Source: Vicugna vicugna (taxonomy: Eukaryota). From it: 64,000 bases of DNA. Below the pieces are notes generated by a model that had not been told where the DNA came from, made no database searches, and saw only the letters and a program-made list of their open reading frames with translations. Location: NCBI GenBank assembly GCA_013265495.1, contig MU057718.1, positions 1 through 64,000 on the forward strand, in the 5' to 3' direction. Of this stretch, positions 1 to 64,000 are shown piece by piece; the first letter of the stretch is position 1; each line of letters opens with the position of its first letter. Position numbers and translations under genes: made by a program.

Positions 1-249
1 CGGGGGGCGGGGCGGTGGGGTATTAGCCCTGGGACAGAGGGAAGAGGAACAGAAGAGTTAAAAATAAATCCAGTCCATCTCTTCTTTCACGATTTCTTGA
101 AAAGTTATCTTGGTGCTAGTCAGTGCACAGTGAATAAAAACCAAATAATTGTTCCAAACTTTCTATCTACAAGTTGGCCACTCTGCAGACAAAAAGTTCA
201 AATCATCCTCATGATCAGTGAAACTCAAGGGATGCATTTACAGCCTACT

Positions 250-2460
250 GATAAATGAAGAGGTACAGAGGGTGAGGTTTCAACCATCTAGTCAGAGTTC
301 CAGAAGGAGAAGGGGAGAGAGAGAATGGAGGCCATTATTTGAGGTTATAATATTTCAAATATTTGTGCAATAACACTTAAGAATTGTACAGAATTCTATT
401 TACAGGCTATCATCTGGGTGTTTGAGGTGCTTGTCTTTCTTGGGTTGCCACTGCTTCAATGAACAAAGTTGGAGATACGCATTTTTTAGAGAACCTTGAA
501 ATTCAACATTGTAAAATTTATTTGACTACTTAGATTTTACAATTGTACCTCTTTTCCACTTGAAAACTTAATTCCTAATGACATTAAAAGGAACCACAGT
601 AACTTACTCATTTTATTTCAACTTACTGATATCTACCTACCCACACACAAATACTAATACTTCAACATAGCCATATTCATAATACTTAAATAATGAGTTT
701 AATATGTGAAATTTAAGATTTATCTAAAGGTTTTTTTTTAACTGCAGGCTATACATTACTAGCAACAGAGCCAAAATATTGTAGGTTTAGTGCACAAATA
801 TGATTCCTCGTAGTGGGGTTATGCCACCAACTTTATACATAGTTAGATTAAGTTTCATCTCATTTTCAATTTTAATAATTGTTATATTTGGTTATTTTAT
901 TTATTTCACTTTGAGTTACGTAAAATATATACATGATTCCAAGTTCAAAAGTATAAAGCAGAATTTTTACTTGCATCCACATGCTTGTTTTTAATTTTCT
1001 CGTATAATAAAGATGAAATATAACATTTTATGTTCATGCCATTGTATCTTTGGACAGATTATTAGAAATAGGATTCCTGAATTTATAAGATGACCGTGTG
1101 TATACTTTCATTAGGTATTGCAAAAATCCCCTCCATAGACTGGTACCATTTCTCATTCCCATCAGCAATGCTTGAGAATGCATCATTATTTAGAGGCTGG
1201 CCAACAGAATATGTTGTCAGACATTTCATGTTTTGATAATTTGGTAGCTGAATAATGTTCTTGCAGTGTATTATTTTGAAATCCTTTATTATAAGGATTT
1301 ATATATAATAAAGGATTTCTAAATAGGTTTAAGCTTTTCCCATATATTTAAGGGTCACATTTATTTATTTTTATGTGAAAATACTACATAAATATCATTA
1401 ATCTTTCTATTAATTTGTTGGCCATTTTCTTCTCAATTTTTGGAAGTTTTAACAGAATTGTAAAAGAATTAACTTTAGGCCGAACGAATGTTAGTCTAGC
1501 CAGGGAGTCTGAAATAGAACAAAGGAAAGGAAATTAAAGAAAGACATCCATGAACAAAAGCAAGTAAACACTATTCAAGTCACACTTCATAGTAATAAAA
1601 TGTCTTGTGATTAAATAAAATACAATTTTAAAACACGAAAACAGCAAAAGGGTTGGAGTGGTAAATGCATTGACATTGATCTAAGGTCTTTGTTAGCTAA
1701 AAGGAAGCAGAAGATTGAATTAAGTTTACACGTTGAAATGTTAACAATGCTTAATATAAATTATAGGTTAACCATTAAACAAACAGAGTGTGTAATTTTG
1801 AATTTAGTGGAAGGCAATATAAAACTGTTCAATCCCCAGTACCTCCATTAACAAAACAAACAAAAATCTTTTTTAAAAGTCCATAAAAAATAGACGTATT
1901 TGAACAAGTAAAACTTGATAATATTTACTGCCCAAATGCCCTCAGTGATGGAATTCTAAAGGTTATACTTCACAGAAATAAACTCATCTCAGCTGAAGAT
2001 TTGAGGGAAGCAAGCAATCGAGAATAAAAGCAAACATCTGTTTATAAAACAGGAATGACAGTGTCAACTTTCTTAACATTCAAAATTCAAGATAAAACTA
2101 AAATATGCAATCGGTTGTGAAGTAACAATGATCATTAAAACTATATTGAAATACATTCGTATCAATGAATTTTATATTTAAACTAAAATATAAATTAAAT
2201 CTTACGATAGAAAATATAATAAAGTACTAATAAGTGGTTGGCAAAATTATGTCTGTCAAATATAAAGAAAAATAATACTGAAAATGCGTAAGTAGTATCA
2301 AGACAAAGGAGATACTTAACAAAACAAAGGGAAACGTGCATGACGATGAAAGGCACACTTTTCTAAGAAATAAACTTGCATGAACAAACAATATAGCAGA
2401 CAAATAATGCAGAAACAATGACCATGAAAGAACAGATAAAAAATGAAATTATAAAGAAAT
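250..2460. mobile_element. Highly decayed ancient L1 (L1ME-like) fragments, mixed orientation
   Basis: L1 ORF1-like 'catctagtcagagttccagaaggagaa...ttatttgag' at about 285-345; antisense L1 3' motif 'ccatttctcattcccatcagcaatg' at about 1146-1170; A-rich L1-like text to about 2460. Boundaries approximate. Confidence 0.45.
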
Positions 2461-5029: not shown

Positions 5030-5220
5030 CCCCTTACCTGCCCGGCGGCCGCAGAGGAGGCGACGGCAGGCGGTAGCCCAGTCCCCAGACCGCCTTGTTC
5101 CTGGGGACCCGCTGCAGGAGCGCCCAGCTTCCCCAAGCTCCGGGCAGTTCAGGCGCCCGCGCAGGCGCATTCACGCGTGCGTGCGCGCCCCTCCTCCTCC
5201 CGCCGGAAGCGCGGACCCTC
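5030..5220 (-). promoter_or_regulatory. CpG-island promoter / first-exon-like module in the last array copy
   Basis: Minus-strand donor CAG|GTAAG ('cttacctg', 5033-5040); NRF1-type GCGCCTGCGC at 5159-5168; ETS-type CCGGAAG at about 5202-5208; GC boxes at about 5300-5345. Parent gene not recognised. Confidence 0.5.
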
Positions 5221-20882: not shown

Positions 20883-21088
20883 ACACATCATTAGACAATG
20901 GAGGCAGTGGGAAAACATATTATCACAATAGCTTTAAAATGTGAAGTATCCACCTTGAGTGATTAGCTCAGCTTGTCTTGGCATTGGGAAAAAAAATCAT
21001 CACCTTTATCTTGGTCAGAATGGCCATTACCAAAAAAGTCTACAAATAAATGTTGGCAAGGATGTGGAGAAAAGGGAACCCTTGTACA
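20883..21088. repeat. Mosaic junction built from short copies of distant sequence
   Basis: 20883-20920 is the reverse complement of 50629-50666 (38/38). 20918-20932 matches 48490-48504 (14/15). 20933-21014 matches 48648-48729 (78/82). An L1 ORF2 piece of about 75 bp follows. Confidence 0.88.
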
Positions 21089-42194: not shown

Positions 42195-43103
42195 CACACA
42201 GAGAGACACACACATACATATTATTTTGATATACGTATATGTAAAGATACATACGTCTTCTTTATCCATTTATCTGTTGATAGGCACTTAGGTGGCTTCC
42301 ATATCATGGTAAATGTAAATAATACTGCTATGAACATTGGGTAACTGTACTTTTTCATATTATGTTGGTTTGTTTATTTTCCATATATATCCAAGAGTGG
42401 AATTGCTGGCTCATATGATAATTCTATTTTTGGTTTTCTTGAGAACCCTCCATACTGTTTTCCACAGTGGCTGCAACAATTTTGATTCTCACCAACAGCA
42501 TATGAGGGTTCCCTTGTCTCCACATCCTTGCCAACATTTGTTATTTGTTCTTTTCGATGATAAGCATTCTGACAGGTGTGAAGTAATATCTCACTGTGGT
42601 TTTTATTTGCATTTATGTGATGATTATTGATGTTTCAGCTTATTTTCATGTGCCTATTTACCATCTGTATGTATTCCTTGGGAAAAAATGTTTATTCAGT
42701 TCTTCTGCCTATTTTTTAATTAGGTAGTTTTCTTGCTTTTGATGTTGAATTATATGAGCTCTTTACATATTTTGGGTACTACACCCTTACCAGTCACATC
42801 ACTTGCAGACATTGTCTCCCATTGTGTAGCTTGCCTTTTTATGTTGCAGGTGGTTTCCTTCACTGTACAAAAGCTTTTAAGAATAATTAGGTCTCATTTG
42901 TTTATTTTTACTCTTATTTCCTTTGATTTAGGAGACAGATCCAAAAAATAGTGTTGTGATTTGTGTGAAAGAGTGTTCTGCCTATGTTTTCCTTTTGAAA
43001 AGTCTTACACTTAGGTCTGTAACCCAGTTTGAGTTTATTTTTGTATATGGTGTTAGAGAATGTTCTAATTTTATTATTTAACATGTAGCTGTCCAGTTTT
43101 CCT
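41730..43103 (-). mobile_element. L1 3' portion (L1MA-like) containing (TG)n at 42161-42190
   Basis: Antisense 3'UTR and ORF2 C-terminus ('ttccacagtggctgcaacaat', 'ccacatccttgccaacatttg'). Confidence 0.85.
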
Positions 43104-43471
43104 CATGTATCTTTTAATAATGCTGAGAGAATAAATGAAGCCAAGTTAGTTTTGTAGAGTTTGTTATATTAAAGTTCTTATCCCCCCATTCTGATTCTCT
43201 TCAGTTATCCCTGTGGATCTATGTTAACAACTGATTTTGTTTTCTTACTCCCATCCAGTTTTCCCCCACCCATCTCCTTCGTCTTGTTGTCAAATATACT
43301 ACAGAATTATTAATGCAATTATGTGCCTATCATTTTAGGCAATTTAGTTTTGAAATCAGGAGAAGTAAGAAGAAGAAATATGCAATTATATGGCATTTTG
43401 TAATTACATGCATGTTTAATTTTATTGGCACTCTTTCCTTTTATGGCCTGAATTATTGTCACTTGCTTTTA

Positions 43472-46400
43472 CTTTTTAATTTTTTCCCTATTTTTACTTT
43501 TTAACCACCTTTATTGTGGTATGGCTACTATACAGTAAACTATACATATTTCAGATGTACAATTTGATGAATATTGATAAATACATAGCAGTGAAACTAA
43601 CAATACAATCAAGACAGCTAACATTTCTGTCACTGCCAAAGGGGTGCACATTTTGAATTCCCAATTTTTCCCTTCCCAACCCTTTATCCCCTGATAACCA
43701 TAAGTATTTGTTTCTCTGTATCTGTGAATCTGTTTCTATTTTGTAGATAAGTTCATTTGTGTCTTTTTATTTTTTGTTTTTCGTTTTGCTTTCACATATA
43801 AGCAGTATCACATGTGGTGTTTTTCTTCCCCATTCTGATTTCCTTCACTTAGAATGACAATCTCCAAGTCCATTCATATTGCTGCAAGTGGCATTAATCA
43901 CTGTTTATGTCTGAGTAGTTTTCCATTGTGTGTGCGTGTGTGTGTAATACATATATAATCACATCTTCTTTATCCAGTCATCTGTTGATGGACATTGGGG
44001 TTGTTCCCGTGTTGGGGCTACAGTAAATGGAGCTGCTGTGAACACTGGGGAGCATGTGTCTTTTCAGGTTGTATTTTCCTCCAGCTATAAGTCCAAAAGT
44101 GAGATTGCTGGATTCTATAGTAAGTCTATTGTTAGTTTTTTGAGGAAGCTTCACACTGTCCTCCATACTGGCTGCACCAATTTACATTTCCATCAGCAGT
44201 GTAAGAGGGTTCCTTTTTCTCCACACCCTCTCCAGCATTTATCACTTGTGGACTTTTTAATGATGGCCATTGTGACTGGTGTGAAGTGATATCTCATTGT
44301 AGTATTGATTTGTCTTTCTCTAACAGTTAGTGATGCTGAGCATCTTTTCATGCTCAACCATTTGTATGGCCATCTGTGTGTCTTCTGTGGAGAGATGTCT
44401 ATTTAGGTCTTCTACTCATTTTTTCATTGGCTTGCTTCTTTTTTTGATATTAAGGTGTATGACCTGTTTGCATACCTGAAAATTAGTCCCTTGTCACAAA
44501 TATCTTCTCCCATTCTGTGGGTCTTTTTTCATTTTGTTGATGGTATCCTTAAATGTGCAAAAGCTTTTAAGTTTAATTAGATGTTATTTGTTTATATTTC
44601 CTTTTATGTCCATTCCTCTAGAATCTGATTCTAAAAAACTATTGCTGTGACTTATGTCAAAGAGTGTTCTGCCTACGTTTTTCTCTGGCAAATTTTTAGT
44701 ATCTGGTCTCCAATTTAAGTCTTTAATCCATTTTGAGTTTGTTTTTGTACATGGTTAGGGAATGTTCTAATTTCAGTCTTTTACATGCAGCTGTCCAGCT
44801 TTCCCAGCACCACTTATTGAAGAGACTGTCTTTTCTCCATTGTATATTCTTGCCTCCTTTGTCATAGATTAATTGACCATAGGTGCGTGGGTTTATTTCT
44901 GGACTTTCTATCTTGTTCCACTGATCTATGTGTCTGTTTTGTGCCAGTACCATACTGTTTTGATTACTGTAGCTTTGTAATATAGTTTGAAGTCAAAGAG
45001 CATAATTTCTCCAGCTCCGTTCTCCTTTTTCAAGACTGTTTTGGCTATTCGGAGTCATTTGTGTTTCCAGACAATTTTGAACATTTTTGCTCCAACTGTG
45101 TGAAAAATGTCATTCATAATATGATAGTGATTGCATTGAATCTATATATTGCCTTGGGTAGTATGCTTATGTTAGCAATATTCATTCTTCCAATCCAAGA
45201 ACACTGTATATCTTTTCATCTTTTTATGTCATCTTCAATTTCTTTCATCAGTGTCTTATAGTTGTCAGAACTATGCCTCCTTGGATAGGCTTATTCCTAG
45301 GTATTTCATTCTTTTTGGTGTGATGATAAATAGGATCGTTTCCTTAATTTCTTTTTCTGCTGTCTTGTTAGTATATAAAAATGCGACTGATTTCTGTATA
45401 TTAATTTTGTATCCTGCACCTTTACCAAATTCATTGATGAGCTCTAGTAGTTTTCTGGTTGCTTCTTTAAGGTCTTCCATGCATAGTATCATGTCATCCT
45501 TGAACAGTGACAGTTTTCTTTTCTTTTCTTTTCTTTTTTAGATCTGGATTCCTTTTATTTCTTTTTCTCCTCTGATTGCTATGGCTAGGACTTCCAAAAC
45601 TATGTTGAATAAAAGTGGCAAGAGTGAGCATCGTTGTCTTTTTCCTGACCTTAGAGGGAACACTTTCAGCTTTTGACCATTATGATGTTAGCTATGGGTC
45701 TGTCATATATGGCCTTTATTATATTGGGGTATACTACCTCTATGCCCACTTTCTGGAGAGTTTTCATCATAAATTGATGTTGAATTTTATCAAATGCTTT
45801 TTCCACATCTATTGAAATGATCATATGTTTTCTGTTCGTCAGTTTGTTAACATGGTGTGTCACATTGATTAATGTGAGGAAAACTCCTTGCACCCCCAGG
45901 ATAAACCCTATTTGACCATGGGGTAGGATGCTTTTAATGCATTGCTGGTATCAGTTTGCCAGCATTTTGTTGAGCATTTTTAAATTTATATTCATAAGTG
46001 ATATTGGCCTGCAATTTTCTTTTTGCGTGCGTGATATATTTGGTTTTGTTGTAAGGGTGATGTTTACCTCATGGAATGGGTTTGGAAGTGCTCCTTCCTC
46101 TGCAATTTTTTGGAATAGTTTCAGAGGGATAGGAGTTACTTCTTCCCTAAATATTTGGTAGAATTCACCTGTGAAGTCATCGGTCCTGGACGTCTGTTTG
46201 TTGGGAGTTTTTAAATTACTGATTCAATTTTGATTTCTCCATCAAATCTGTAGGAGAGCCTTGCTGGATAGAGCACTCTTGGTTGCAAGTTTTTCCCTTT
46301 CATCATTTTAAATGTATCACACCACTTCCTTCCAGCCTGCAGAGTTTCTGCTTGAGTAATCAGCTGAGAACCTTCAGGTAGTTCCCTTGTATGTTATGTG

Positions 46401-48135
46401 TTGCTTTTCTCTTGCTGAGTATAGTATTTTCTCCTTATCCTTAATCTACGTCAATTTGGGTTAATCTTGTGTGGAATTCTCTGAGCTTCCTGGGCCTGGG
46501 TGACATTTTCTCCCCACAAGTTAGAGAAGTTTTCAGCTATTATCTCATCATATATTTTCTCAGGTCCTTTCTCTCTTCTTTTCCTGGTACCCCTATAATG
46601 TAAATATTAGTGTACTTCATGTTGTCCCAGAGTTCTCTTAAACTATTCACTTTTTCTTTCTCTCTCTCTCTCTCTTTTTTTTTTTTGTTCTGTTCTGTTG
46701 TAGTGATTTCCACTAATCTGTATTCTAGCTTATTGATCTGCTCTTCTCCCTCACTTTTAGTCTTTTCTTGGTTCCTTCTAGTCTGTTTTTCACTTCAGCA
46801 GTTGTATTCTTCAACTCTGTTTGGATATTCTTTATGTTTTCTAACTCTTTACTAAAAACTACCCTCTGTGTATCTATACTTCTCCTGAGTTCCCTGAACA
46901 TCTTCTCCATCATTATTCTAAACTCTTACTTGGCTAGATTGCCTGTCTCTTTAACATTTATTTTTTCTTCTGGGATTTTATCTTGTGCCTTGGCCTGGGA
47001 AGTATTCCTCTGCTGCCTCATATTGTCTAACTTTCTATTTGTATTTTTAGGTAAGTCAGTTTCATTTCTTGACCTTGGAGAAGTGGCCCTTTTTGGGAGA
47101 CACCCTATGCATCCCAGCAGTACACGTCTCTCTTGTCATCCAAGGACCAGGGTCCAGCTGGCCCCTAGGTAGAGTCTGGCTTGTGTTTGCAGATTTCTCC
47201 CACAAATTTGGGATTGTTGTTTTCTTATTTCTGGTATCTGTTCCCTGGTGGATAAAGCTGAACTGCAGCTTCTGTAGGTTTCCTGGCAGGAGGACATGGC
47301 GTCTGCTCACTGCTAGGTGGAGTTTAGGTCTGGCTTTTGGATGGATAGGGCCATGCTTAGTTGCATGTCTAAAGGTGGCTGTGCACTCAGGAAGACTGCT
47401 GATAGGTGGGGCTGAGTTCCTACCCAGGTTGTTGTTGGGCCTGAGGCTTCCCAACACTTAAGCCTTCCAGCTGTTGGTTGGGGCTAGGTCTTGGTGTTAA
47501 TGATTTAAGCAAGATGTCAAGCTCCTAGAAAATTCATGTAGTTGAACACTCCCCAGATATCTGCCACCAGCTTTTGTGTCCCCAAGGTGAGCCATAGCCA
47601 CCCCTTTTCTCCTCAGAAGACCTTTCAAATTGAGCAGGCAGGTCTGGCCCAGTTTCCTACGAAGCCACTGCCTGTGCCCTTGGACATGGTCCATGTGAAA
47701 TTCTTTGTTCGTGTCTCAAGAGAGTGAAGTCTCTTTTTTCCCCAACCTGTGGAGCTCCTGGAGATAAGCTCTGCTAGCCTTGAAAACCAGATATTCTGGT
47801 GTTTCCGTCTTCCAATGCCAAAACCCTGGGCTGGGGAGCCTTATGTGGGGCTCAGAACTCTCACTCCTGTGGAAGGGCCTCTGTAACTTAATTATTCTTC
47901 AGCTCATGGGCAGACTATTCAGGGGCTATGGGGCCTGCTTGTATCATGAGCACACCCCTCCTACCATCCCACTAAGAGTCCCTCTTTATGCTTCCAGTTG
48001 AAGAGGGTTTTTTTGCTAGGTTTTAGTCTTTTTCTTCCCCCATGGCTGTCTAGTAGTCAGTTGTGCTTTTGTTGTAGTTGTGAGGACAGGTGAGCTGGTG
48101 GTCCTACTATTCCACCATCTTGACCGGAAATCTCT
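43472..48135 (-). mobile_element. L1 retaining 5'UTR and 3' end, with a large internal deletion
   Basis: T-rich tail at 43472; ORF2 RT/C-terminal frames ([23 protein letters not shown]); jump from ORF2 to ORF1 at about 46230; 5'UTR about 47050-48135 ending in the L1 start 'ttccggtcaagatggtgg' (rc of 48111-48128). Confidence 0.88.
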
Positions 48136-48139
48136 GTCC

Positions 48140-50345
<2,206 letters not shown>

Positions 50346-51594
50346 TTCCCCTTTCCTCTTTTTAAATTAGCAGTTTTATTTATTTTTCCACAGGACTTTG
50401 GTATCATTCATGCTTTCCAAACTCTTCCAAGATTTCTAACAGTAGTTTCTGAGGTCACTTGCTTTTAGACTGAAGCACTTCTATTAGCATTTCTTTTAAG
50501 ATAAGTCTGCTAGCAATAAATTCTACTTTTTGTTTGTTTTATAAGTTTGGATGTATTAATTTTTTTTATTTTTGAAATATGGTTTTGTTGGATTTAAGAT
50601 TCTTGGTTGAGAGTTTTTAAAGTTTTGCATATGTTTTCCCACTGCCTCCATTGTCTAATGATGTGTGAACTGTTATTCTGAATGGGGTTTCCCCCATATG
50701 GAATACAAATTCAACTGTAGCCTGCAGGTGGATCAAAAATAGATGAGAACCTAGGGAAACAATTAGTATTAAAAAAAAAAAAGTTGGGAGAGGGTTGTGG
50801 GTTAAATATATGTAGGAAAAATGGACTTAATCTGGTAGCAGAAAAACCGTGTCATCCTCATTTCTTGGTGCTATATTCTAAATCAGAGAAAAGTGAAAAT
50901 CTCTGCAGAGGTATTTCTTTTTTTTTCTCACAATCATCTGTCTTTAGTTTTATTTCAAAAGAGATAGCTATGCAAAATGCTTTTTATGTTTATTTTTCTA
51001 TCCAAAGTAAGAGTCTTAATTGACTGTTGCTTCTAAACTAACTTCTTACTGATATTCTTAGACAATCCTTCGAGAAATAAAATTTTCATCACATATTTGT
51101 TATTATAGAAAAATCATTATAGTTCTAATTAGTATATAAATGGTTTTCAAAGTTGTCTTCTTTATAATACAAAATAATTTACTTTTCCCATTAAAATTTT
51201 TATTTCAGAAAATATCAAACTGATTAGATCTTTGAAAGGCTTGAACATTATGGCAGCATCTGTATTTTCCTTTTCCTCACGGGAGACAAGGGGAAGAAGA
51301 AATAAAGTGGGCAACAGAGCTTGCTCTTACTTGCATTCTTCTGTGAATGTAACTATAGTCCTTTCTTTCCCCAAGTCTTTGGTCTTGTCTCCTCTTTCTT
51401 CTTTTTTTAAATTGATTGGCTGGTTAGTTATTCAGTGTATTTATGTCAAAATAATTGTTCCCTTAACTGGAGGGGAAAGAGAAGAATGAAACCATTTATT
51501 CATATAACAAGAACTTACAAAACAAGTTTAATAAAATTTTAGTAAAAGTCCAATATGATTTTTAAAGATGACTATCAGCATTATTCTAAAATAC

Positions 51595-52755
51595 TGAGTA
51601 TGAGCACACGTCTATCAATCATCACTGTAAATGTCAATGGACTAAATGTTCCAATCAAAAGACACAGAATGGCAGACTGGGTAATGAAACAAGAACTAAC
51701 AACGTGCTCCCTACAAGAGACCTACTTTAAAGGACATTCATAGAGTGAAAGTGGGAGAATGGAAAAAGGTGTTTCATGCAAAATGGAAAAGACAAGAAAG
51801 TGAGGGTAGCAATACTCATATCAGACAAGAAAGACTTTAAAACAAAGTCCATAAAAAAGATAAAGGACATTATATAATGATCAAAGGAGCAATACAAAAT
51901 GAAGATATTACACTTATTAACATATTTGCACCCAATATAGGAACACCGAAATGTATAAAACAGATACTAACAGACAAACAGGGAGAAATTGATGGGAATG
52001 CAATGACAGTAGGAGACTTTAACACCCCATTCACATCATTGGACAGGTATTCCTGACATAAAATCAATAAGGCAATTGAGATATTAAATTACACAATAGA
52101 GCAGTTAGACTAAATTGATATTTTCAGGACATTACATCCCCCCAAAACAAAATACACATTCTTTTCAAATGCACATGGAACATTCTCTGGGATAGATCAC
52201 ATACTTGGACACAAAAGAAGCCTCAATAAATTTAAGAGGATAGAAATTATTTCAAGCATATTTTCTGACCACAATGGCATGAAAATAAAAATCAACCACA
52301 GAATGAAAAACGAGGGGAAAAAACACTACATGGAGACTAAACAACATGTTACTAAAAAAAAAAAAATTAAGTCAATGATGAAATCAAAAAGGAAATTTAA
52401 AAAAATACCTTGAGATAAATGAGAATGAAAACACAACCACTAAAATTGCATTGGATGCAGCAAAATCAGCCCTAAGGTGAAGTTCATAGCAATAGGGTTC
52501 TTACACAAAAAACAAGAACAAGCTCAAACCCACCACCTCAAAGAATTAGAAAAAGAACAATCAAACAAAACCCAAAGTCAGCAGAGAAAATGGATAACTA
52601 TCAGGGAGGAAAGAAAGAAAACAGATTAAAAAATAGAAAACATTAATCAAACCAGGAGCTGGTTTTTTGAAAGAGTAAACAAAATTGACAAACCGCTGGC
52701 CAGGCCCACCAAGAAGAAAAGAAAGAGGACACAATAAATAAAATAAATAAAATGT
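51595..52755 (+). mobile_element. L1 ORF2 endonuclease fragment
   Basis: LSIITVNVNGLNVPIKRHR frame; 'ggagactttaacacccca'; 'gatagatcacatacttggacacaaa'. Confidence 0.9.
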
Positions 52756-53374
52756 TGAGTATGGAAGGAGATAATTTAAGCAAGACACATAAAAGCCAGA
52801 CGATGTAGGTTCTTGTCAGCAATCTGAGTGTGTACTGCCTTTGCTTAAGAAAAGTGAGAAATAATGAAATAGTTTTAAGTGAGGAAATAAAATAAGAATT
52901 ACAATTGAAAAGATCACTCTGTACTATAGAGAATAGATTAAATAGGACAAGAATAAATGGGAATATAAATAGTTGTGCTCCAGTTTCTTTCCATGACTGT
53001 ACCTTCAGCAAATATTGTGAGAGCCACTACCATGGGCTAGACGTTAGCTGGCAATAGAGATCGAAGCTACTGTGCCTTTCTTCCAGTTGGGGATATTGAT
53101 AAACATATTGTTTTAATATTTTCAGATCTCTAACCCAAGACTCTACAATACACCTATTGATATAGCTTGCATAGCTTGCTTTGCAGAAAAGATAATTATC
53201 ATCTGAGTTAGAACTCACTCAGTTTCTCTTTTTTATAGTAAACATTTGTATAATATATGATGTGTATATTTGTTATATGTAATCTACTAGGTACCAAGCA
53301 TTCTTCTACACATTGAAAATATATCCTTGAACTAAAGAAGAACCTGTTCTCCTGGACTTCGTATTAAACTTCTA

Positions 53375-54016
53375 CACGTTAAGAAAAAAAGAAAGATAAA
53401 ATAAATTATACAAATCAGTAATAAAATCAGATATCACAACTGATGTCACAGAAATACTAAGGATCATTAAAAAGCTGCTATAAAGAATTATACACCAGCA
53501 AGTTAATAACCTAGTAGAAAAGGGTAAATTCTTAGCAATGTACAAACTACCTGACTGAATCATGAACAAATAGAAAATTTGAACAGATCAAATAGTAGCA
53601 AGAAGATTTAATTAATAATCAAAAACCTCATAACAAAGAAAAGTCCAGGACCAAATGACTTCACTGTTGAATTCTACAAAACAGTTAAAAAAGAATTCCT
53701 ATCAATCCTTTACAAACTCTTCTAAAAAGTAGAAGAGGTGGGAGCACTTCCCAATTTATTTTATGAGGCCAGCATTATTTTGATACCAAAAGCAGACAAG
53801 AAAAGAAAATTATAGACCAAGATCCTGTTAAACATAGACTCAAAAATCCTCAACAAAATATTGGCAAACTGAATTCATCAGTACATTAAAATGATCATAC
53901 ACCATGAGCACGTTGGATTTATTCCAGTGGTACAAGGGTCATCCACTATGTGCAAAATAATAAATGTGATACATGGCATTAATAAAATGAATAAAATAAA
54001 TTAATAAAAATGAAAG
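53375..54016 (+). mobile_element. L1 ORF2 fragment (pre-RT region), truncated at the 54-kb junction
   Basis: 'aagtccaggaccaaatgacttcactgttgaattctacaaa', 'ttttatgaggccagcattattttgatacc'. Confidence 0.85.
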
Positions 54017-54190
54017 TAAAAACTCTCAACCAAGAATCTTAAGTCCAACAAAACCAAATGATAGTCTCTAAATAGAATTCTGTACAATTCTTAAGTGTTA
54101 TTGCACAAATATTTGAAATATTATAACCTCAAATAATGGCCTCCATTCTCTCCCTCCCCTTCTCCTTCTGGAACTCTGACTAGATGGTTG
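54017..54190 (-). repeat. Mosaic junction: inverted copies of 50580-50619 and 281-417
   Basis: 54017-54056 is the reverse complement of 50580-50619 (39/40). 54054-54190 is the reverse complement of 281-417, with about 120 bp carrying one mismatch plus a slightly diverged end. Confidence 0.9.
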
Positions 54191-56551
54191 TGTTTGGGGG
54201 AAAGAAAGACACAACCACTGACTACACCCAGCACCCTGCCCACCATCAGGTGCAACCACCAACCTGAGCTGAGGGGTCTGCCTGTCCTCACCAGGAGTGC
54301 CCGGGGCACCCTGGGGTTCGTCTGGATGAGCAGGAAGCTGGCATCCCGGGGCAGTGGGCACGGCCCGCTCTCTGTGGACATCATCAGGCCTGGTGACCAA
54401 GGACCGTTCCAAAAAGGAGGCACACTGTGTGAGATGTTTGGTGGAACAGTGCTGCACCGGCCGACCTCTTGCAGCAGGGAAGCTTCTGGATGCGCCACCA
54501 ACGGTCAGCCCAGTACTCAGCTCTGAGAAGGGCCAGGGCCCATGGCCCCTACAGGAGCCAGGCCTGCCAGGAAGGGGGTGAGGTCTCCCCACTCCAGCTT
54601 CCCAGAGACGGGACTGGTGACCGGGTCCCCCACGGGCAGGACACAGCATCGCTGGACAGAGCAAGAGGGACACTGGCAAAACAGGGCAGTGGCCGCAGCC
54701 AGCCTGTCCTGTGGCCAGCGGCCTGAGTCACCTTCAGCAGGAGCTCCCCTGCACTGGGCAGTGGGGTGAGAGGCGAGCCCCGGGAGGAGGGAGCCCGACA
54801 CCCTGGCTTCCCGGCCCGAGACCCCTGGGCCTCTCCTGTCTTGTCCCTGGATGGGGAGGGGCAGGCCCCACTGCCGGGTGGTGGCAGGGGAGGGGGGGGC
54901 GTGCTACAGCCAGAGGTCACGCCAGGCCTGGCTTGGGAAGCTGTGCATCCTTTCTAAACTTCTGGAGCCCATGAACTTTCTGCGCTGTTTCTCTTTGGTT
55001 TGGGTTTTTGTTGGGAGACTCTGGCTTGGCATGTTTTGGGTTCTTTAGACAATAAAGCATCCTTTACCATTCCATAGTTCCCTGGGAACCGGTCTGTGCT
55101 GCGGCCCCTCCCCTGGTGACTCCACAGCCTGGCCGCCCTCCACACCCGTCCAGCCCCAGGCCCCAGCTCTCCCCCCACCACACCCATCCCTGGGGTTCCC
55201 TGGGGGCGTGGAGTCAGCAGCAAGTCCCAGGGGTCGGACGCCTGGTCAGCACGGCTGCTGTAACATGCTCCACAGTCGGGTTGGAACCAGAGAAATGATT
55301 GTCTCCCGTCCTGGAGCAGCACGTGCCAGGTCAAGGAGCGTGAAGGCCACTGTGCCCACCAGCTGCCAAGGCTGCAGGGACGGAGTCAGGACTCGGTCCT
55401 CCTGGGAGGCCAGACCCTGAGCTCCAGTCCCTCCTGGCGGTTCCATCTCAAAGGAACAGTCTCAGGTCCCGGGTTGTAGGAGACACAGCACTCCCCAGAG
55501 GGCAGACACAGGAGCCACAGCTGTCTGCCCTTCGCAGGAAACCCTCCAGGAAACGGAGGCCAGCACCTGGTCAGGGTTGGCTCTGCTGGGCGGTCCAGGC
55601 CAGCACTTCAGGAGAGCTCAGTCACCCACGGGACGCGGCCCCGGGTGGCTGGACATTGTCCAGGGGTCTGCGTGAGCCTTTCCGTGTGTCAGGGCAGAGG
55701 GGGCAAGATCAATGTGCCGAGTCTGTGGCTCCATGGCCCCAGGGGAGGCCAGCAGGACAGGCTCCTGGAGGGGAGCTGGGACCAGCACTGTGTCTCTGTC
55801 AGTAAAGCCACAGCACCCTAGGGCCATTGGAAAGGGCCATTCCAGCTTCCTGTGGGGACAGACAGACAGAAAGACAGAGAGACAGAGGAAGACAGAGAGT
55901 TTTATGCAGGAAAGGGACAGCTCGCTCCAGTGGGCTGTACAGCAAAGACGGTGAGGCCATGGGGCGGGCAGCCGGGTCCAGGAGCATCGCCGGCCCTCAG
56001 GGACCCTGCCAGGCGTGAGGACACCGGGCACCCTCTGCCTCGAGGGCTCTATCAGGGCTCCGGAAACCATCCTGGGGGTCTCCCCCACTCGCAATTTCTG
56101 TCACACGGAACACCTAACCAACAGGCTGAACCTGCCAATCGTCCCTGCAGCCTGCCCGGCCCCAGGCCCTACCCCTCACCTCCATCCCCTGGACCATGGA
56201 TCTGCCTCCAGCCAGACATTCCCATGGGGACACCAGGACGGTCGATACCGGCTGGCCCCACGGGTCCTTGAGGAGCACCAGTCCCAGGACAGCTGCCTCC
56301 CACCAGGCCTGAGGACCCCGTCCTGACCCTGGGGCAACACCAGGCCACAGCGCGTCCCCCATGCACAACCCCTCCTGGGCCCCTGGAAGCGAAGTGGCCG
56401 ACGCCTTCCCTTGAGCCCCTGTGTCAGCCCCAGTGTGAGCCTGAGGTCAGCCTCCTGCTGCTCCTGACCCCTAGGGGCCCTGCCCCGGGCAAGACCTCCG
56501 ACACACTCCTGTCAGTGTCTCACCTCTCCTACCCGCACCCCCATCCACATC

Positions 56552-56553
<2 letters not shown>

Positions 56554-56595
<42 letters not shown>
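56554..56595. repeat. (CA)n microsatellite
   Basis: Directly visible. Confidence 0.95.
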
Positions 56596-56597
<2 letters not shown>

Positions 56598-56709
56598 GGC
56601 TGCCACCCCACTGCGCTCCTGGGCCCCCACCAGGTCCCCCCTCCTCCCGCACTCCAAGGGGAACGTCTGTCAGTCTGAGCTTTGGATACCTGGATTGCTG
56701 TCCGTGTGC

Positions 56710-57390
56710 GGTGTCCGTGGATGTGGAGAAAAGAAACCCTTGTGCACTGTTGGTGAGAACATAAAATGGCATTACCGTCGTGCAAAACAGTTTGGAAGCC
56801 CCTCAAAGAAATTTCAGACACAACTACCACACTTGCAGCAATCTCACTGCTTAGAATAAACCCGAGTGAACATACAACAGGTCTTAAAGAGGCACTTGAA
56901 CACCCATTTCACAGCAACTCCGTTGACAATACCTACCACGAGGCAGGAACTCGAGTGTCCTTCCGTGGATGGACAGATGAGCACGATGTGGGCTGAGCAT
57001 ACAATGGAACGGTACTGCCGCTGAAGAAAGAAGAATATTGTGACGTGTGTGACAGCACGGGGGCACCTGGAGGACACCGGAACGCGTACCGTGAGCCTGG
57101 GGCAAGACAGTGAATCGTGTGCGATTCCACTTGTGTGAGCGATTAGGAGTGGCCGCATTCACAGAAAGAGAAAATACAGAAGTGGCTGCAGCCGGGGCAG
57201 AACGGGGGGTTATTGTGTACGGGCATAGGGTTTCACACGTAAAGACGGGGAGAGCTATGGAGACACAGGTGGTCGTGATTGCACTTTATGAATGTATCTA
57301 CTGTCCCCAAAACCCGGAGAAAGGGTTAACATGCCACACTTTCTTAGGGGCAAATCCTATTCTTTTACCACAGTGAAAAAAAAAAAGCCT
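56710..57390 (+). mobile_element. Old L1 3' end, GC-shifted
   Basis: 'ggatgtggagaaaagaaacccttgtgcactgttggtgagaacataaaatgg', 'atacaatggaac', A-tail at about 57376-57386. Confidence 0.7.
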
Positions 57391-58379
57391 TTTAAGCAGG
57401 AGAAATCCAACCCATGAAGTAAAATCTGAAAGCCTTCAGGAAGACCTGGAGCCTGTGTCTCTCCCTGTGGAAGAAACCGGTGGCAGCAGGATGGAGCTGC
57501 ACACCTGACTGGCCCAGGGCTGGACGCCCTGTGGAGGCCGGCGGGCGCCGGAGGAGCAGCTTCTCCACACTGACAGCGTGAGGGTGCAGGTCAGAGACAA
57601 CGTGCACGGCTGTAGCAGGGCCCCCCAGCCAAGGGACTGCTCCTTCAGTTTGCTCTCCAACAGGGGTAAACTTCTCTTCTGGACAACCCTAACCTAGAGA
57701 CACACGAAGGGAAGGGAACGCTAAGAAAGCTGCTCACGGCTTAGCTAACCTGACGTAGAACAAGAACAGCACAACCCACTGCTTGTCGGCCACCGTGGAC
57801 CACGTTAAGCTTCCCGATTGAAAGACAGCAACACACTTTGTGTTTCCACCTAATGCAGGGAAACTATCTCAGATATAATATAAAATTGCCAGCCCTCCTC
57901 CAAGAAAGGCCAGAACTCCCATTGACCATCTTACGTAACTTCGGCTGATGATCATTTCTCGCGTTGATGAATAACCTCCGTCTTGGGTGTCCTGCAGCTC
58001 GTATGCTGAGGTATGTAGCATCGCCACTAACACGTCTTACGTCAGACGGTAGGGGGTGGGGGTGGACGGAACAGGTTGGTTATGAGAGGAGGAGACGGAG
58101 ACGGTGGAGTAGAAGGACACAGAGCACATTCACATTACATCTACATGTGGACCACGTCTCACTGGAGAAAAATGGAGACTGGCAGAGAGACTCCTGTACA
58201 GCCAAGGCGCTGAAGAAAGGTCCACGAGGAGTCACGTAGGGTGGGAAGAGAGGTACTCGGTTTGGAACGCAGCCTCGAGGAGGGGACCCGGGCCAGGGAG
58301 ACACGTCATGGGCCCGGAGGTCTTCCCTGGGGAGTGGGCAGCTTGAGAGCGTTAGTAATATGAATGCTAACCAAGTTAG

Positions 58380-59780
58380 GGAAAAGAACAGATGAAAACA
58401 ATTTGAACCTTTACAGGGACCTGGAAAATATGAAAAGAGAACCACTCACCGGAGGGGTACAGTAGCTAAAACTTAAAACACTGGAAGGGGCGAACAGGAG
58501 ACTAGGTGACACCGGAGACCCCACGTGACGTGGAAGACAGAACCATGGGAATTACCCAGTCAGAACTACAAAAGGAAGAACAACTCTTTTAAAATTGAGA
58601 GCACTTTGAGGAATCTATGGAAGTACACAACTGTCGTAACATTGGCATGATCGGGGTCCCAGAAGCAGAAGAGAGGGAGAAAAAAGCTGAAAATGTACTT
58701 TATGAAATTATGGCAAAAACTCACCAACCATGAAGAAAGAGAGACATTTCCAGGCGTAGGAATCACACAGTCCCAAACAAACAGAACCGAGAGAGACCCA
58801 CACCAAGACACGTCTCAATTAAATTGGCAAAAGTTAAGGATAAAGAGAGAACTCTGAAGACAGAAAGAGAACAACAGAGTCACGTACAAGGAACTGCCCC
58901 AAAGTTAGCAGTTGATTTTTCTGCAGAAACTCTGCAGACCAGACGGGAGAGGCATGATCTATACAAATGTTGAATTGAAAAAACCTACAACCTAGGAGAT
59001 GTCACCCCGCAAGATTGTCGTGCAGACCTGAAGGAGAGACAAGAACTTCTCAGGCAAGCAAACCCTGGAGCAGTTCATCAGCCCTCAGAGACATGTCAAA
59101 GGTCTTCCTGGAGGGGAACACACAGGCTATTGCAAGACGCAAGAATTTACAGCAAAGGCAAATCCCACTAAAAGGCAAATTAAAGCCTGAGGGTCATCAA
59201 CTAAATAAGCAAAAGATCAAAAGATCAAATACGTAAGATGAACTGTGACTGCACTAAACAGCAGTTCACAGGGAGAAGTAAAATATGACATCAAAAAAAT
59301 GGGGGGGTCACAGAGGGAACTAAAGAAAAAACAGACACGTGAAAAGCTGCTCACATTCCTAATCATTAGGGAAATGTAAATCAAAACCAAATGAGATGTC
59401 ACCACAAAGACTACAGGTAAGAAATACTGGTGAAGAGATGGGGTAGACGGAACCCTGGTCGCTGTTCGCAGGAGTGCAAGTTGGTGCAGCCTCTGGGGAA
59501 AACAGTGAGGAATTCCCTCAAGAAAACTAAAGATACAACTATCACACGGTCCAGCAATTCCACTCCCGCCTGTACATCCGAAGGAAACAAAAACAAGAGC
59601 TTGAAAAGATACATGCACCCCAAGGTACATAGCAACTGTATGAACAAGAGTCAGCATACGGAAGCAACACAAGGGTCTGTCGGCAGAAAAATGGATAAAG
59701 GCGGTACGATGTCTACACACGACGGAATAACGCCCAGCCGAGCAGAAGAATGCAATTCTGCCATCCCCGCCTTTACTTGG
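58380..59780 (+). mobile_element. L1 ORF1 and 3' ORF2 fragments
   Basis: 'ggggtcccagaagcagaagagagggag', 'gattttttctgcagaaactctgcagaccaga', 'ggagtgcaagttggtgcagcctctggggaaaacagtg'. Confidence 0.75.
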
Positions 59781-60989
59781 CGCTCACTGAAGCAGACATC
59801 CACCGCAGGACACTGCACCTTCACAGCACCCTGACTGGCACCAGCCGGAGTGGCCCAGCTGCGGGGACACGTGAGACCGACGGCATAAGGACCTCATATG
59901 TCTTTGTGCTCACACCTCCCCGAGAGGCGGGGCCTTGCCTCAGCCTCACCCCGGGGAATCCAGGGCCCTGGACCAGACAGCCTGCAGTCCCTGCCTGTGC
60001 AGAGGGCGCCAGGACTTGCGTGTACGATTTCGGCCCCTCTGCCCTTGCTGCCTGTGAGAGGCTCCTGGGTGCCCTCTCCTCTCACTCCTTTCCTCAGGGA
60101 CTGGCTGCCAGACACATCCCTGCAGCCTGGGGTGTTGGGAGAGACAGAAGCCCTGGAAGTTCTGCGAAGGTGCCACCCATTTATCTACCAGACAACTGCT
60201 TACCAGGTGGCAACTCCACCATCACCACTGGACACTGAGTACATGTGGGGCCCGAGATAGACGGGGCCTCTGCCCTCAAGGAAGTTAGAGAACAGGGCAA
60301 GGGCAGACACTAAGTAAATCAGCCCACAGCTATGTGAGGACCATCAGGATAAGAGCTGGGAATGCACAGCGTGGGGCTGTGAGGCTGCTCAGTGCAAGAA
60401 ACAGCCTGGTCTGTGGGGTCAGGGCTAGCTTTCCTGGGTGCGCCCTGAAGCAGAGCCCTGGAGGACCAGGGTGGCTGCCTCGGGTCTGCTGGTCAACAGC
60501 TGGTCTCCTGCCCTCCCAGCCACCGAACCTCCTAGACCCAGGGTAAGTGCGTTCATCCATGTGGGAGAAGACATTAGTGACGTGTTAAAGGTTAGGCTTC
60601 AAAACGGCCTGATGGTGACTCTCCTGTAGACACATAAAGAACACATCTCCAAATTGTACTGAACTCGTTAATCAAGGTGTGAGAGCCCGGCCAAAGCAGT
60701 ATTCAAAGCACTCCATTTGTACAGTCGAATCAAGAGTGCTGAAATGAGTTTACAAACAGTTTCTAAATGGGAGTCAGAGAAGCCTCGATCCTTCATCCGA
60801 AGAAGGGGATTTGTGTTGCCATCCACCCTCTGCAGCTTAGAGAGTCGGGAAATAGCTCAAAGACAATGAAAACCATAGAGCCCCACGGGGCAGGATGGCC
60901 TTGACGCGCACACAAGACAATGCCTTGCTTTCCACTGAAGACACCAGGAGTGATTTTTTTGGTCCATTTCAACGTCTTTCACAATTTCA

Positions 60990-62900
60990 CCTGCTGACAT
61001 GTGTAACTGACAGAAATAGATTGAGGATAGACAGAGAACTCCTGCAAATCAACTAGAAAAATCAAACAATTCTGTAGAGAAGTGGGCAGGAGAATTAAAC
61101 AGATGTTTCACAAAAGCTGTCCAAATAGCCATGAAACATTTGAAAGGAGCCACACCGGTTTTAAGGGAAATGAAAACCACATCAGAGAAAGCAGTTCTGA
61201 TTCAGCAAGCCCTGGAGAAAGCGAGGAGAAGCAAAGGCAAGAGGAGGCCTTGCAGGCAGCCAGGAAATGACGCATCGCACAAGGGACAAATGACACTGGC
61301 TTCTCATCAGAAAAAAAGTGGTGACCAGGGAACAATAGAAGAGGAGTTTCAACCCAGAAGTCTACATCCAGAGAAAAGATCTTTCTAAAATGACTATGTA
61401 ACAGACATTTTCAGACACACAAAACCTGAGGGAGTGCATTTCCAAGAGACCTGAGGTAAAGGAAAGGCTAACAGAGAGATTTTGTGCTGTGAAGAAATGA
61501 CACCAAAGTGAAAGTCAGGTCCACAGGATGGAAAGTGGAGCATCAGGGGTGGTAAACATGCAAGTGCAAAAAAAATGTGCTTTTCTCTCTTGCTTTCTTA
61601 AAAAGACGATTGTTGAAAGTAAAAACTGTAACTGTATGTTGTGGGGCGTGTAACATGTATAGATGCAAAATACAAGACAGAACCACCAAGAATGAATTGA
61701 TAAGTGGAACTGTACTTTTTCAAGGCCCTAATGACAACATGAGGTTCATTGTGATAACTGCAGGGTGCACGTTATAGTCACAAAAATCACAATGCAAACA
61801 GGCTTATCTTAAAAGTCAGTAGAGAAATCAGAATGGAATACCAAAAAGTACTTCATTGGCCCAAGAGGATGGAGGAAAGAAGGAATAAAGCTGCAGCAAA
61901 CATCCTCACTGGGCGACCTTTAGGGGTGTTCACACAGGGTCCGGGATGCAGCAAGGGCACCTGTCACTGCTGTCATAGTATTTTGCAGGGTTTTTCAGCT
62001 TCGTGACTTGGCTAACCTGTGGACTGTGAACTCAAATCAAAGAGTTACAGCCAGGCTTTCTTTAGTAAACAAAGAAAAACAAGGAGAAATTTTCTGCATT
62101 GTGCATAACAAGAGTAAATATTTTCCATGAAAATTTTTTTTGGTAACATAAATAAATATACACAATATATATGTTTTATACATATATATAACATACAAAT
62201 GTGTATTGGATGACAATATAGAATGTTTTTCTTATAAGGATTTTGTCAAAAAGGTTTGGAAAATGCTCATTTAACAGATTATTGGCCATCCTAGCCAAAG
62301 CTACATGACAAGAAAAAGAAACGGGGTTGTTAAGATTGAAAGAGGAGACGTAACACAGGCATTATTTGCAGACAATATGATCACGTCTAAGGAAAAGCAA
62401 ACAAAAGCAGCGGACGAACTGTTAGAAGTAACGAGAAAAGCAGCACGATTTCCAAATGTAAGACCAATTTACCAAAAGCAGTCATGGTCCTCTGTGACAG
62501 CAAACCTACCAGAAAGTGTAACAGAAAGAGAGGCGCAGCTCACAGCAACGCAAGGGATATCCTGACGAAGGGCACCCAAGACCTTTGTGAAACAAAGTTA
62601 AACTCCATTAAAAGACATAAAAGAAAACTGGTCGGCTGGAGAGACACGCTGGTCAAGGATGGTGTGATAAAGCGCCATTTGTCTCACAGACTAAGAAATA
62701 CAATGTACTCCCCATCAAAATTCCAGCTGGGTTGGTTTTGTTTGTTTGTCTGTCTGTCTTTGAGATCCATTTACAGCTTAGACAATTTTGAAAAATAAAA
62801 GCAAAGGATGAGGGTTTTCAGGGAGACTTTCCCCCTAAACGTTGGCATGGTCACAAAACCGTCACCGAAAACAATGGTACTCATGCTCAAACTACTAGAC
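60990..62900 (+). mobile_element. Decayed L1 fragments
   Basis: 'gagaactcctgcaaatcaactagaaaaatc', 'gcattatttgcagacaatatgatc' (LFADNM), 'ccccatcaaaattccagc'. Confidence 0.65.
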
Positions 62901-63124
62901 CCAAGGAACAGGAGAGCCTCAGAGACAGCCCAGTTGTCCCTCAGAGCTCGGACCACAGTGAGTGGTGCCGTCAGGCAACGGGGAAGCCTGTTGGGGGGGG
63001 ACAGGACTCTCACATGGAGAGCTTCAGTCCTCTGCACGGGGGCTGGTGGTTGAGCCTGTTAGGACCCAGCAGGCTCACCTGAAAGGCCAACTCTGAAGCT
63101 GAAAGGAGGCAGACCAGCCCAGGC

Positions 63125-63553
63125 TGGTGGTGCACGGTGATGGCTTCTGCCTGGTGGAAGGTATGTCCATCCAGAACTTGTGAACATGAACTCGTTTGGA
63201 CACAGGGTCTTTGCTAACGTCATTAGGTCAAGGATGTTAAGATTGGATCACACTAGATTTCTGAAGGGTTACAAGTCCAATGACTTGTAGCAAGTGGAGG
63301 TGACACAGGGCAGAATGCCATGTGAAGATGGAGGGAAGATTGGAGTGAGGCCAGTAGCCAGTCACTGGAAGGGGCTGGACGAGGCAGGAGGGATCCACCA
63401 CCACCACTCCCTCCTCCACCCCAGCCTGGAAGCTCGGCCCTGCCAACACCTTGGTTTCTGTATTCTGGCTTCCAGAGTGTGAGAATCCATTCCTGTGGTT
63501 TAGAGCCACCATACTTGTGGTCCTTTGTGACAGAAGCCCCAGGGAACTTACAC
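63125..63553 (+). mobile_element. MLT1C-like MaLR solo LTR
   Basis: 'tttggacacagggtctttgctaacgtcatt', 'ccatgtgaagatggagggaagattggagtga', 'ctggcttccagagtgtgagaatccattcctgtggtttagagccacc...tttgtgacagaagccccagggaacttacaca'. Confidence 0.8.
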
Positions 63554-64000
63554 AGTAGCCTCCAAAATTCAGGGTAGATAACCAGCAAATCTGCCACATG
63601 GAAACCAAGAACTTACGTCAAATGAGGGCTCAGTACGCAGTGTTAACAGACTGAGGATGATCCAGGAGAAGGTCATCACAATGCAAAACTTGCAAGGGGC
63701 TGGCTTCTAGAGGTGACTGCCGTGCAGATTTCCAGGAATTGCCAAGAGAATCTTAGCAAGCATGATGCGATCAAAGAGAAGTCCAAACGGTTCCTGAGTT
63801 TCCAAAGATATGCTCCAGCTCGTCAGCAACAGGAGGGTTTGGATTAGATCCCAGAGACACCGCGCTGCACCCTTCAGAATGGCAAGCTCCCACGGATCAT
63901 GACAGCGGCATGCCCGCTGGGAAGGCAGTCCTGGGGCTGGAGGCAGGGGCCACGCCTGTGGCAGCCGAGAAGCAGGGCCTCCCAGGAGGCCTGGGATGCC

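What the first reader, a model, noticed from the sequence alone, without database searches (positions are those of the whole stretch)
54017..54190. Second shard junction sits exactly at the AT-to-GC boundary and contains a 137-bp inverted copy of the window start
Seen: a truncated L1 is followed by an inverted copy of 50580-50619 (39/40), overlapping by about 3 bp an inverted copy of 281-417, 54 kb away. GC-rich sequence begins immediately afterwards. The 137-bp piece spans an L1-to-non-L1 transition, so it is a locus-specific duplicate rather than family similarity. Inference: a breakpoint fusing two unrelated chromosomal segments through templated fragments.
Basis: partly seen in the sequence, partly recalled or inferred. 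Interest (0 to 1): 0.7.

Follow-up and report, generated by a model that had tools for sequence, protein, structure and literature searches.

The report
Shard chain beside likely IgG retrocopy
In a probable camelid genome three short pieces of nearby DNA sit copied backwards in a row between a broken LINE-1 and GC-rich DNA that is likely the tail of an antibody (IgG) messenger RNA pasted back into the genome, so this is likely an old DNA-repair scar of a known kind, and the long GC-rich block beyond it may be an assembly mis-join rather than a chromosome fusion.

Summary
Observation confirmed and extended. The junction is a chain of three inverted local copies: 40 bp (39/40), 137 bp (133/137) and a third, moderately supported 19 bp (18/19), joined through 3- and 4-bp microhomologies. 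Four of the five copied pieces at this junction and one at 20.9 kb come from one 2-kb zone around an HDGFL3 retrocopy; two tile 9 bp apart. A contig from a relative about 93% alike bridges the 137-bp/GC join, so that join is real and old, but links it to the donor's own flank: the 54-kb block looks inverted there. The GC side is a 5'-cut copy of a sequence present at roughly 4-6 times single-copy depth, probably the IgG membrane 3' UTR (earlier scan note plus recall, not tool-named). In two DNA runs a contig leaves it in poly(A) 16 bases after AATAAA; in a third a window-identical single-copy contig leaves at the same base. Best reading (0.5): a retrocopy insertion repaired with shards, mis-joined in this assembly to the true IGH locus. 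A real fusion into IGH remains open (0.3). Known kind; the scan noted a similar composite insertion elsewhere in this genome.

The parts
54017..54056 (-). Shard 1: inverted copy of 50580-50619
   Evidence: 39/40
54054..54190 (-). Shard 2: inverted copy of 281-417 ('S'); 3-bp microhomology to shard 1, 4-bp to shard 3
   Evidence: 133/137; its core is one contig at about twice single-copy depth in X1, X7, X12
54187..54205 (-). Shard 3 (new, moderate support): inverted copy of 49202-49220 in the HDGFL3 retrocopy 3' part
   Evidence: 18/19; 0 of 150 shuffles and 3 of 150 real 28-mers (all low-complexity) reach 17/18 anywhere in the window
54214..55072 (+). 5'-cut copy of a multi-copy GC-rich mRNA tail, probably the IgG membrane-form 3' UTR; AATAAA at 55051-55056
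55073..64000 (+). GC-rich genomic flank of the same gene family (probably IGH DNA between the last IgG gene and IgE); may be mis-joined here
   Evidence: 55046-55300 differs from multi-copy contigs at 16 of 255; IgE context from note e1-7856110 only
51550..54016 (+). L1 (ORF1 end and ORF2) cut off at the junction, interrupted by about 630 bp of other DNA near 52750-53385
   Evidence: ends approximate
281..417 (+). Donor (or second staggered end) of the 137-bp piece; old L1 ORF1 fragment plus non-L1 DNA
   Evidence: both of its flanks are seen as loose ends in X7 and X12
48170..50350 (-). HDGFL3 retrocopy (coding part 49374-49961, no introns, broken); centre of the shard donor zone 48648-50666
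   Evidence: 84-85% amino-acid identity to mammalian HDGFL3; one unbroken tblastn match over residues 18-208; PWWP match; outer ends by eye
50580..50666 (+). Two tiled donors, 50580-50619 and 50629-50666, 9 bp apart, used at two different junctions
20883..21088 (.). Sister junction: 38-bp inverted copy of 50629-50666, 12 other bases, 82-bp direct copy of 48648-48729, 75-bp L1 piece
   Evidence: 38/38 and 78/82; layout; L1 piece

Best explanation
Three short inverted copies of nearby DNA, joined by 3- and 4-base microhomologies, link a cut L1 to a 5'-cut GC-rich sequence that is likely a reverse-transcribed IgG membrane mRNA tail, and all were likely laid down in one old repair event. Likely steps: L1 protein nicked this AT-rich locus and copied about 860 bases of the mRNA from its poly(A) end (inferred); the free ends were resected, single-stranded fragments from the 48.6-50.7 kb zone and from 281-417 were annealed by microhomology and filled in at this junction and at the sister junction at 20.9 kb (pieces and microhomologies shown, process inferred); AT-rich DNA likely resumes after the poly(A) (shown for a contig type, assigned to this copy by inference). 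The window's continuation from 55073 into long GC-rich, probably IGH, DNA would then be an assembly jump between look-alike 3' UTR copies (inferred). A relative carries the 54-kb block between the two 137-bp copies in what looks like the opposite orientation (one contig), so an inversion belongs either to the event or to one lineage afterwards.
For: Shards and microhomologies. One event: 4 of the 5 copied pieces come from a 2.0-kb zone of a 54-kb block (rough chance 4e-4), two tile 9 bp apart yet sit at different junctions, and the 137-bp homology ends exactly where shard 3 begins. Real and old: record 15 of X15 bridges 54054-54421 with 25 differences and 2 gaps in 368 bases; records of X1, X7, X12 run from 54161 into the GC side with 0 differences. 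Retrocopy signs: homology to paralogs starts only at about 54211-54247 (loose ends; unnamed ORF P0055 carries about 45 more codons upstream); loose ends behind 55072 in X7 and X12 begin with 11-12 A and go on AT-rich, 16 bases after AATAAA; in X1 a contig of single-copy depth (11.8) is identical to the window over 54984-55072 (89/89) and leaves at the same base, whereas the multi-copy contig differs at several sites there. The only low-depth paths listed entering and leaving the repeat are thus both window-type. Papers give camelids one IGH locus with ordinary V-D-J-C order (PMC11059136, passages) and one C-epsilon with four (alpaca) or six (Bactrian) C-gamma genes (PMC10756906, passage), which fits the depth ratio and sits badly with a second IgE unit. 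L1 protein is reported to leave mRNA copies at inversion and translocation junctions (bioRxiv 2024.12.14.628481, passages).
Against: No listed contig runs from the 137-bp piece to the poly(A), so pairing the two ends is inferred; the poly(A) contig could be a separate retrocopy. The letters after X1's 89-bp match were not among the loose ends shown (19 rows hidden). No clear target-site duplication: only five A-rich letters are common to the L1 end and the start of the post-poly(A) DNA, and that DNA is not in the window. The window has no N gap at 55072, and the bases beyond differ from the collapsed paralogs by about 6%, as much as the part before (4-8%), which is what one old genomic paralog would also show. 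In X15 the one contig listed over 54777-55300 reads through the poly(A) site into the flank. The pieces differ from their donors at 10 of 316 bases (3.2%), less than X15 differs from the window (25 of 368, 6.8%; Fisher p 0.037), which could mean some copies are younger than the S/GC join, though the two sets differ in base composition. No tool named the GC sequence as IgG.
Confidence: 0.5

Rival explanations
1. The window is right: an old complex rearrangement fused at least 54 kb of foreign AT-rich DNA to genomic IGH DNA through the shard chain, cutting off an IgG gene inside its last exon upstream of IgE (an insertion in the locus, or an orphan copy of its tail end). The poly(A) contig is a second, separate retrocopy.
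Against: Needs a second copy that is identical to this one over 89 bases while other paralogs differ by 3-5%; papers report one C-epsilon and an ordinary single locus (passages only, the primary locus maps were not seen).
Confidence: 0.3
2. Not exclusive of the above: the 137-bp piece is not a captured shard but the duplicated overhang of a staggered break that inverted the 54-kb block; each of the two new ends took one small shard (40 bp and 19 bp). The X15 orientation is then the primary product and the window is flipped back, in this lineage or in the assembly.
For: X15 record 15 joins the GC side through the 137-bp piece to the donor's own flank (its loose end matches the reverse complement of 418-447 but for two changes). 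Inverted duplications of unique DNA mark 17 of 29 Drosophila inversions (PMC1885836, abstract).
Against: One contig from one RNA run; a collapsed 137-bp repeat can be joined wrongly if two of its four flanks lack cover. Contigs of X1, X7, X12 break at both ends of the repeat and cannot phase it. A 137-bp repeat is usually resolved by read pairs, so an assembly flip is unlikely (own knowledge).
Confidence: 0.3
3. Two events: an old join of the 137-bp piece to the GC side, then a younger, lineage-specific inversion that duplicated it.
For: Only 1 difference in the 122-base core; lower shard divergence than between window and X15; X15 contig unbroken at both ends of the piece.
Against: The second break would have to fall exactly on the old junction, and both events would have to draw on the same 2-kb donor zone. 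The test of whether 181-280 is the natural neighbour of the piece was inconclusive.
Confidence: 0.12
4. The whole shard junction is an assembly artefact.
For: Gapped assembly (519 N at 3721-4239); no listed contig spans the whole laid stretch.
Against: The join to the GC side is bridged in X15 and its words are in X1, X7, X12; the core is at double depth and branches exactly at the first base where the two window copies differ (54068/54069); copies differ from donors at 10 of 316 bases, which an assembler would not create.
Confidence: 0.05

Closest known systems
[quoted passage not shown]
   Same: Short copies strung together at junctions, neighbours joined by more than 2 bp of microhomology, donors tiling with a small gap and ending up at different junctions, donors within 10 kb of a breakpoint, both strands used (sister junction).
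   Different: Here an inherited, old germline scar shared with a relative, not a cancer or cell-line clone; only two tiles, not four or more; pieces of 19-137 bp against a median of 184; no copy-number data.
L1 ORF2p-induced rearrangements with processed-pseudogene inserts (bioRxiv 10.1101/2024.12.14.628481; passages seen)
   Same: An mRNA copy with poly(A) next to inverted or inverted-duplicated genomic DNA; inversions with an insert at one junction.
   Different: No clear target-site duplication here; several separate donors rather than one fold-back; the retrocopy status is inferred from contig ends.
Staggered-break inversions with inverted duplications (Ranz et al. 2007, PMC1885836; abstract seen)
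   Same: Inverted duplicate of non-repetitive DNA at both ends of a block that a relative appears to carry the other way round.
   Different: Duplicate is very short and flanked by extra shards; outgroup orientation rests on one contig.
Processed immunoglobulin constant-region pseudogenes such as human IGHEP2 (recalled, from no call)
   Same: An antibody constant-region transcript copied back into the germline outside the IGH locus.
   Different: Only the membrane-form 3' UTR, no coding exon; complex 5' junction.

Membership tests
Chain of short templated insertions (shards) | Two or more short locus-specific copies in tandem at one junction | tested here: met
   40, 137 and 19 bp at 54017-54205; 38 and 82 bp at 20883-21014
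Chain of short templated insertions (shards) | Microhomology over 2 bp or untemplated bases between neighbours | tested here: met
   3 bp and 4 bp at the two inner joints; 1 bp at the L1 joint; 12 other bases at the sister junction
Chain of short templated insertions (shards) | Donors tile with little gap and go to different junctions | tested here: met
   50580-50619 and 50629-50666, 9 bp apart; only one such pair
Chain of short templated insertions (shards) | Donors within 10 kb of a breakpoint | tested here: inconclusive
   4 of 5 donors lie 3.4-5.4 kb from 54017; the 137-bp donor lies 54 kb away unless it is itself an inversion end
Chain of short templated insertions (shards) | Accompanying large copy-number gains | not testable with these tools
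   no genome is held for this window
L1-made processed pseudogene | Poly(A) at the mRNA cleavage site in DNA | tested here: inconclusive
   present in contigs of X7 and X12 behind 55072, 16 bases after AATAAA; absent from the window; link to this copy inferred from X1 record 7
L1-made processed pseudogene | 5' truncation against the parent transcript | tested here: met
   paralogs continue with other letters left of 54214/54247; P0055. A genomic break would look the same
L1-made processed pseudogene | Target-site duplication | tested here: inconclusive
   only 5 A-rich letters shared; just 30 letters of the far flank were shown
L1-made processed pseudogene | Loss of introns | not testable with these tools
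   the piece lies within one last exon
IgG membrane-form 3' UTR | Alignment to an annotated IGHG membrane exon | not testable with these tools
   no mammalian DNA collection; protein searches gave no named hit; name from note e1-7856110 and recall
IgG membrane-form 3' UTR | Copy number like that of camelid C-gamma genes (4-6) | tested here: met
   contig depth 45-70 against about 11-12 (depth is only a rough guide); gene counts from PMC10756906 passage
Staggered-break inversion | Inverted duplicate of unique DNA at both ends | tested here: met
   281-417 and 54054-54190
Staggered-break inversion | Opposite orientation and a single copy in an outgroup | tested here: inconclusive
   one RNA-run contig with the opposite pairing; copy number there unknown

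The most novel reading that the evidence does not exclude
The assembly is right and camelids carry, inside or copied from their antibody heavy-chain constant locus, a fixed germline fossil of a chromothripsis-like breakage event: a foreign block of 54 kb or more that beheaded an IgG gene just upstream of IgE, scattered tiled shards of one 2-kb zone over two junctions 33 kb apart, and lies in opposite orientation in two camelid lineages, where a CpG-rich array could drive transcription into the orphaned IgG poly(A) site.
Probability: 0.2. Interest if true: 0.62.

Novelty: new member of a known kind. Interest (0 to 1): 0.33.

Why it matters
As a mechanism it is known, but tiled shards split over two junctions are described mainly from cancer genomes, cell clones and congenital cases (PMC12807874 passages); an inherited example shared by related species shows such scars can be fixed and dated. 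For camelid immunogenetics the practical point is larger: either there is an unreported IgG-tail retrocopy that lures assemblers into mis-joining the IgE end of the heavy-chain locus to foreign DNA, or the locus that makes nanobodies holds an unreported large insertion and a beheaded IgG gene. One long-read alignment separates the two. My ten paper searches (open-licence library only) showed no description of this junction; the primary locus papers (Achour 2008, Ming 2020) were seen only as references, and their maps or supplements may bear on it.

Tried and rejected
Protein search with one reading frame of the GC side found nothing (84 candidates); a second frame found only the unnamed ORF P0055; the full-library search added P0058, a chance repeat-protein match that I rejected. 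Two metagenome scans for host DNA were empty. No look-alike windows in other genomes; a word look-up was empty. Test of whether 181-280 is the natural L1 ORF1 neighbour of the 137-bp piece: alignments extended into it and not into the GC side, but 270 of 500 shuffles and 213 of 500 real flanks scored as well, and Pfam saw neither frame: inconclusive. By bin arithmetic no contig of X1, X7 or X12 covers 54034-54053, and none matches the window exactly over 55073-55300; filters and dropped variants make such holes no evidence, so the L1/40-bp/137-bp joints are unverified outside the assembly. The post-poly(A) letters are not in the window. Direction of base changes before and after 55072 did not separate retrocopy from genomic copy (read by eye from the 40 of 110 rows shown). 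Six RNA runs with small shares were listed; only X15 was laid. A guess that the boundary is a pseudoautosomal or ordinary isochore boundary was dropped once the GC side proved multi-copy with a poly(A) end. PMC7868527 and PMC7468183 (passages) gave no constant-region map.

Full report
Check of the observation. Self-alignment of the window gives 281-417 against the reverse complement of 54054-54190 (133/137, E 2e-60) and 50580-50619 against that of 54017-54056 (39/40), overlapping by three bases. GC rises from 0.32 (50400-54016) to 0.63 (54214-55072). All coordinates are right. The DNA looks camelid: short interspersed repeats at 11.6 and 14.6 kb resemble a camelid family (recalled), and earlier notes on this genome say alpaca-like.

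Anatomy. Between the 137-bp piece and the GC-rich DNA lies a third inverted copy, 54187-54205 from 49202-49220 (18/19). In controls, 0 of 150 shuffles and 3 of 150 real 28-mers, all low-complexity, matched as well anywhere in the window, so support is moderate. It shares four bases with the end of the 137-bp piece; the 40-bp piece shares three with its other end. A sister junction at 20883-21088 holds a 38-bp inverted copy of 50629-50666, 12 other bases, an 82-bp direct copy of 48648-48729 and a 75-bp L1 piece. Four of the five donors fall in 48648-50666, around an intronless, broken HDGFL3 copy; two lie 9 bp apart but went to different junctions. Copies differ from donors at 10 of 316 bases.

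Is it real? Of 24 runs listed, 14 (five organism labels, nine studies) hold 0.50-0.59 of the words of 53990-56500. I laid 4 of the 24 on 53990-55300. In X1, X7 and X12 (three labels, DNA contigs) the core of the 137-bp piece is one contig at about twice the depth of its neighbours; it ends at 54069, next to the first base where the two window copies differ, and at 54190. Loose ends in X7 and X12 match both flanks of 281-417 exactly. Contigs start at 54161 and run into the GC side with no difference; they have 30 bases on the left, one short of the tool's bar for a bridge. In X15 (RNA contigs, about 93% alike, so a more distant relative) one 843-base contig does bridge 54054-54421. The join to the GC side is therefore real and older than the split from that relative. 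The L1-side joints were not confirmed outside the assembly.

Orientation. That X15 contig does not go on into the 40-bp piece; it goes on into the flank that follows 417 in the window (two changes in 30 letters). This is what inverting the 54-kb block between the two 137-bp copies would give. It is one contig and could be a wrong join across a collapsed repeat; I give it about 0.7 of being real. Because the shared 137 bases end exactly where the third shard starts, I think both copies stem from the event that added that shard; a direct test of which flank is ancestral was inconclusive.

What the GC side is. An earlier first-reader note called 54160-55075 the membrane 3' UTR of an IgG gene without its exons, upstream of an IgE switch unit; this changed my reading. 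It agrees with my recall of the human sequence, but no tool named it. What the calls show: paralog contigs at depth 45-70 against about 11-12 for single-copy DNA, 4-8% different from the window, parting from it left of 54214-54247; an unnamed ORF from such a paralog with about 45 further codons upstream; AATAAA at 55051. Alpaca is reported with four C-gamma genes and one C-epsilon, the Bactrian camel with six and one (PMC10756906, passage), in a single ordinary locus (PMC11059136 and PMC6812646, passages).

The poly(A) end. Loose ends behind 55072 in X7 and X12 start with 11-12 A and continue AT-rich, 16 bases after the signal, in DNA runs: the mark of a retrocopy. In X1 a contig at depth 11.8 is identical to the window over 54984-55072 and leaves at that base, while the multi-copy contig differs there and goes on into the flank; in X12 about 12 of 104 depth carries the window's letters at 55028-55038. 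The simplest pairing is that the window-type path that enters from the shards is the one that leaves in poly(A). The window instead continues, without a gap, into flank DNA about 6% different from the collapsed paralogs. Either the assembly jumped from the retrocopy to the last IgG gene before IgE, or this is a true genomic copy and the retrocopy is a second locus. Against my reading: no listed contig spans the 860 bases, 19 loose ends and 53 pieces were not shown, no clear target-site duplication, and X15's one listed contig over 54777-55300 reads through the site.

Mechanism. Shown: pieces, strands, microhomologies, tiling, multi-copy GC side, a poly(A)-ended copy, the X15 bridge. Inferred: an L1-primed mRNA copy whose free ends were resected and patched with single-stranded fragments by microhomology-mediated joining, at two junctions in one event, with or without inversion of the block. 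The sister junction uses both strands and the donors tile, which a recent paper takes as evidence for captured fragments over polymerase template switching (PMC12807874, passages); the three same-strand pieces at this junction alone would fit either. L1 protein is reported to cause inversions and inverted duplications with mRNA copies at the junctions (bioRxiv 2024.12.14.628481, passages); staggered breaks leave inverted duplicates at inversion ends (PMC1885836, abstract).

Verdict. Observation confirmed; interpretation partly supported. Retrocopy with shard-patched junction plus mis-join 0.5; true fusion with IGH DNA 0.3; two events 0.12; artefact 0.05; the staggered-inversion origin of the 137-bp piece (0.3) cuts across the first two. 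New member of a known kind; interest 0.33. Ten paper searches showed no account of this junction, but the primary camelid locus maps were not readable here.

Noticed in passing
window 2481-5417: GC- and CpG-rich unit of roughly 0.9-1.1 kb repeated three to four times (88-93% alike) around a 519-N gap, in otherwise AT-rich DNA; could act as a promoter. In the X15 orientation it would lie 2-5 kb upstream of the IgG-like poly(A) site.
   Followed up: no
window 48170-50350: HDGFL3 retrocopy with its GC-rich 5' leader, directly next to the 5' end of a near full-length minus-strand L1 (about 42500-48135).
   Followed up: partly
window 52750-53385: About 630 bp of non-L1 DNA interrupts the L1 left of the junction; no copy elsewhere in the window; may be a further foreign piece.
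   Followed up: partly
window 21015-21088: 75-bp L1 piece at the sister junction; could be a shard from the lost continuation of the cut L1 (guess).
   Followed up: no
window 54536-55300: The multi-copy paralogs in X1, X7, X12 differ from the window mostly towards G or C at sites where X15 keeps the window's letter, suggesting GC-biased homogenisation of the gene family in one lineage.
   Followed up: no
window 54547-54741: X7 and X12 hold a further single-copy paralog (depth 12.4) with 6 differences from the window, distinct from the multi-copy type.
   Followed up: no
window 1-40: GC-rich first bases; the neighbouring window's offset of 47260 hints that the piece is about 111 kb long and starts here (inference).
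   Followed up: no
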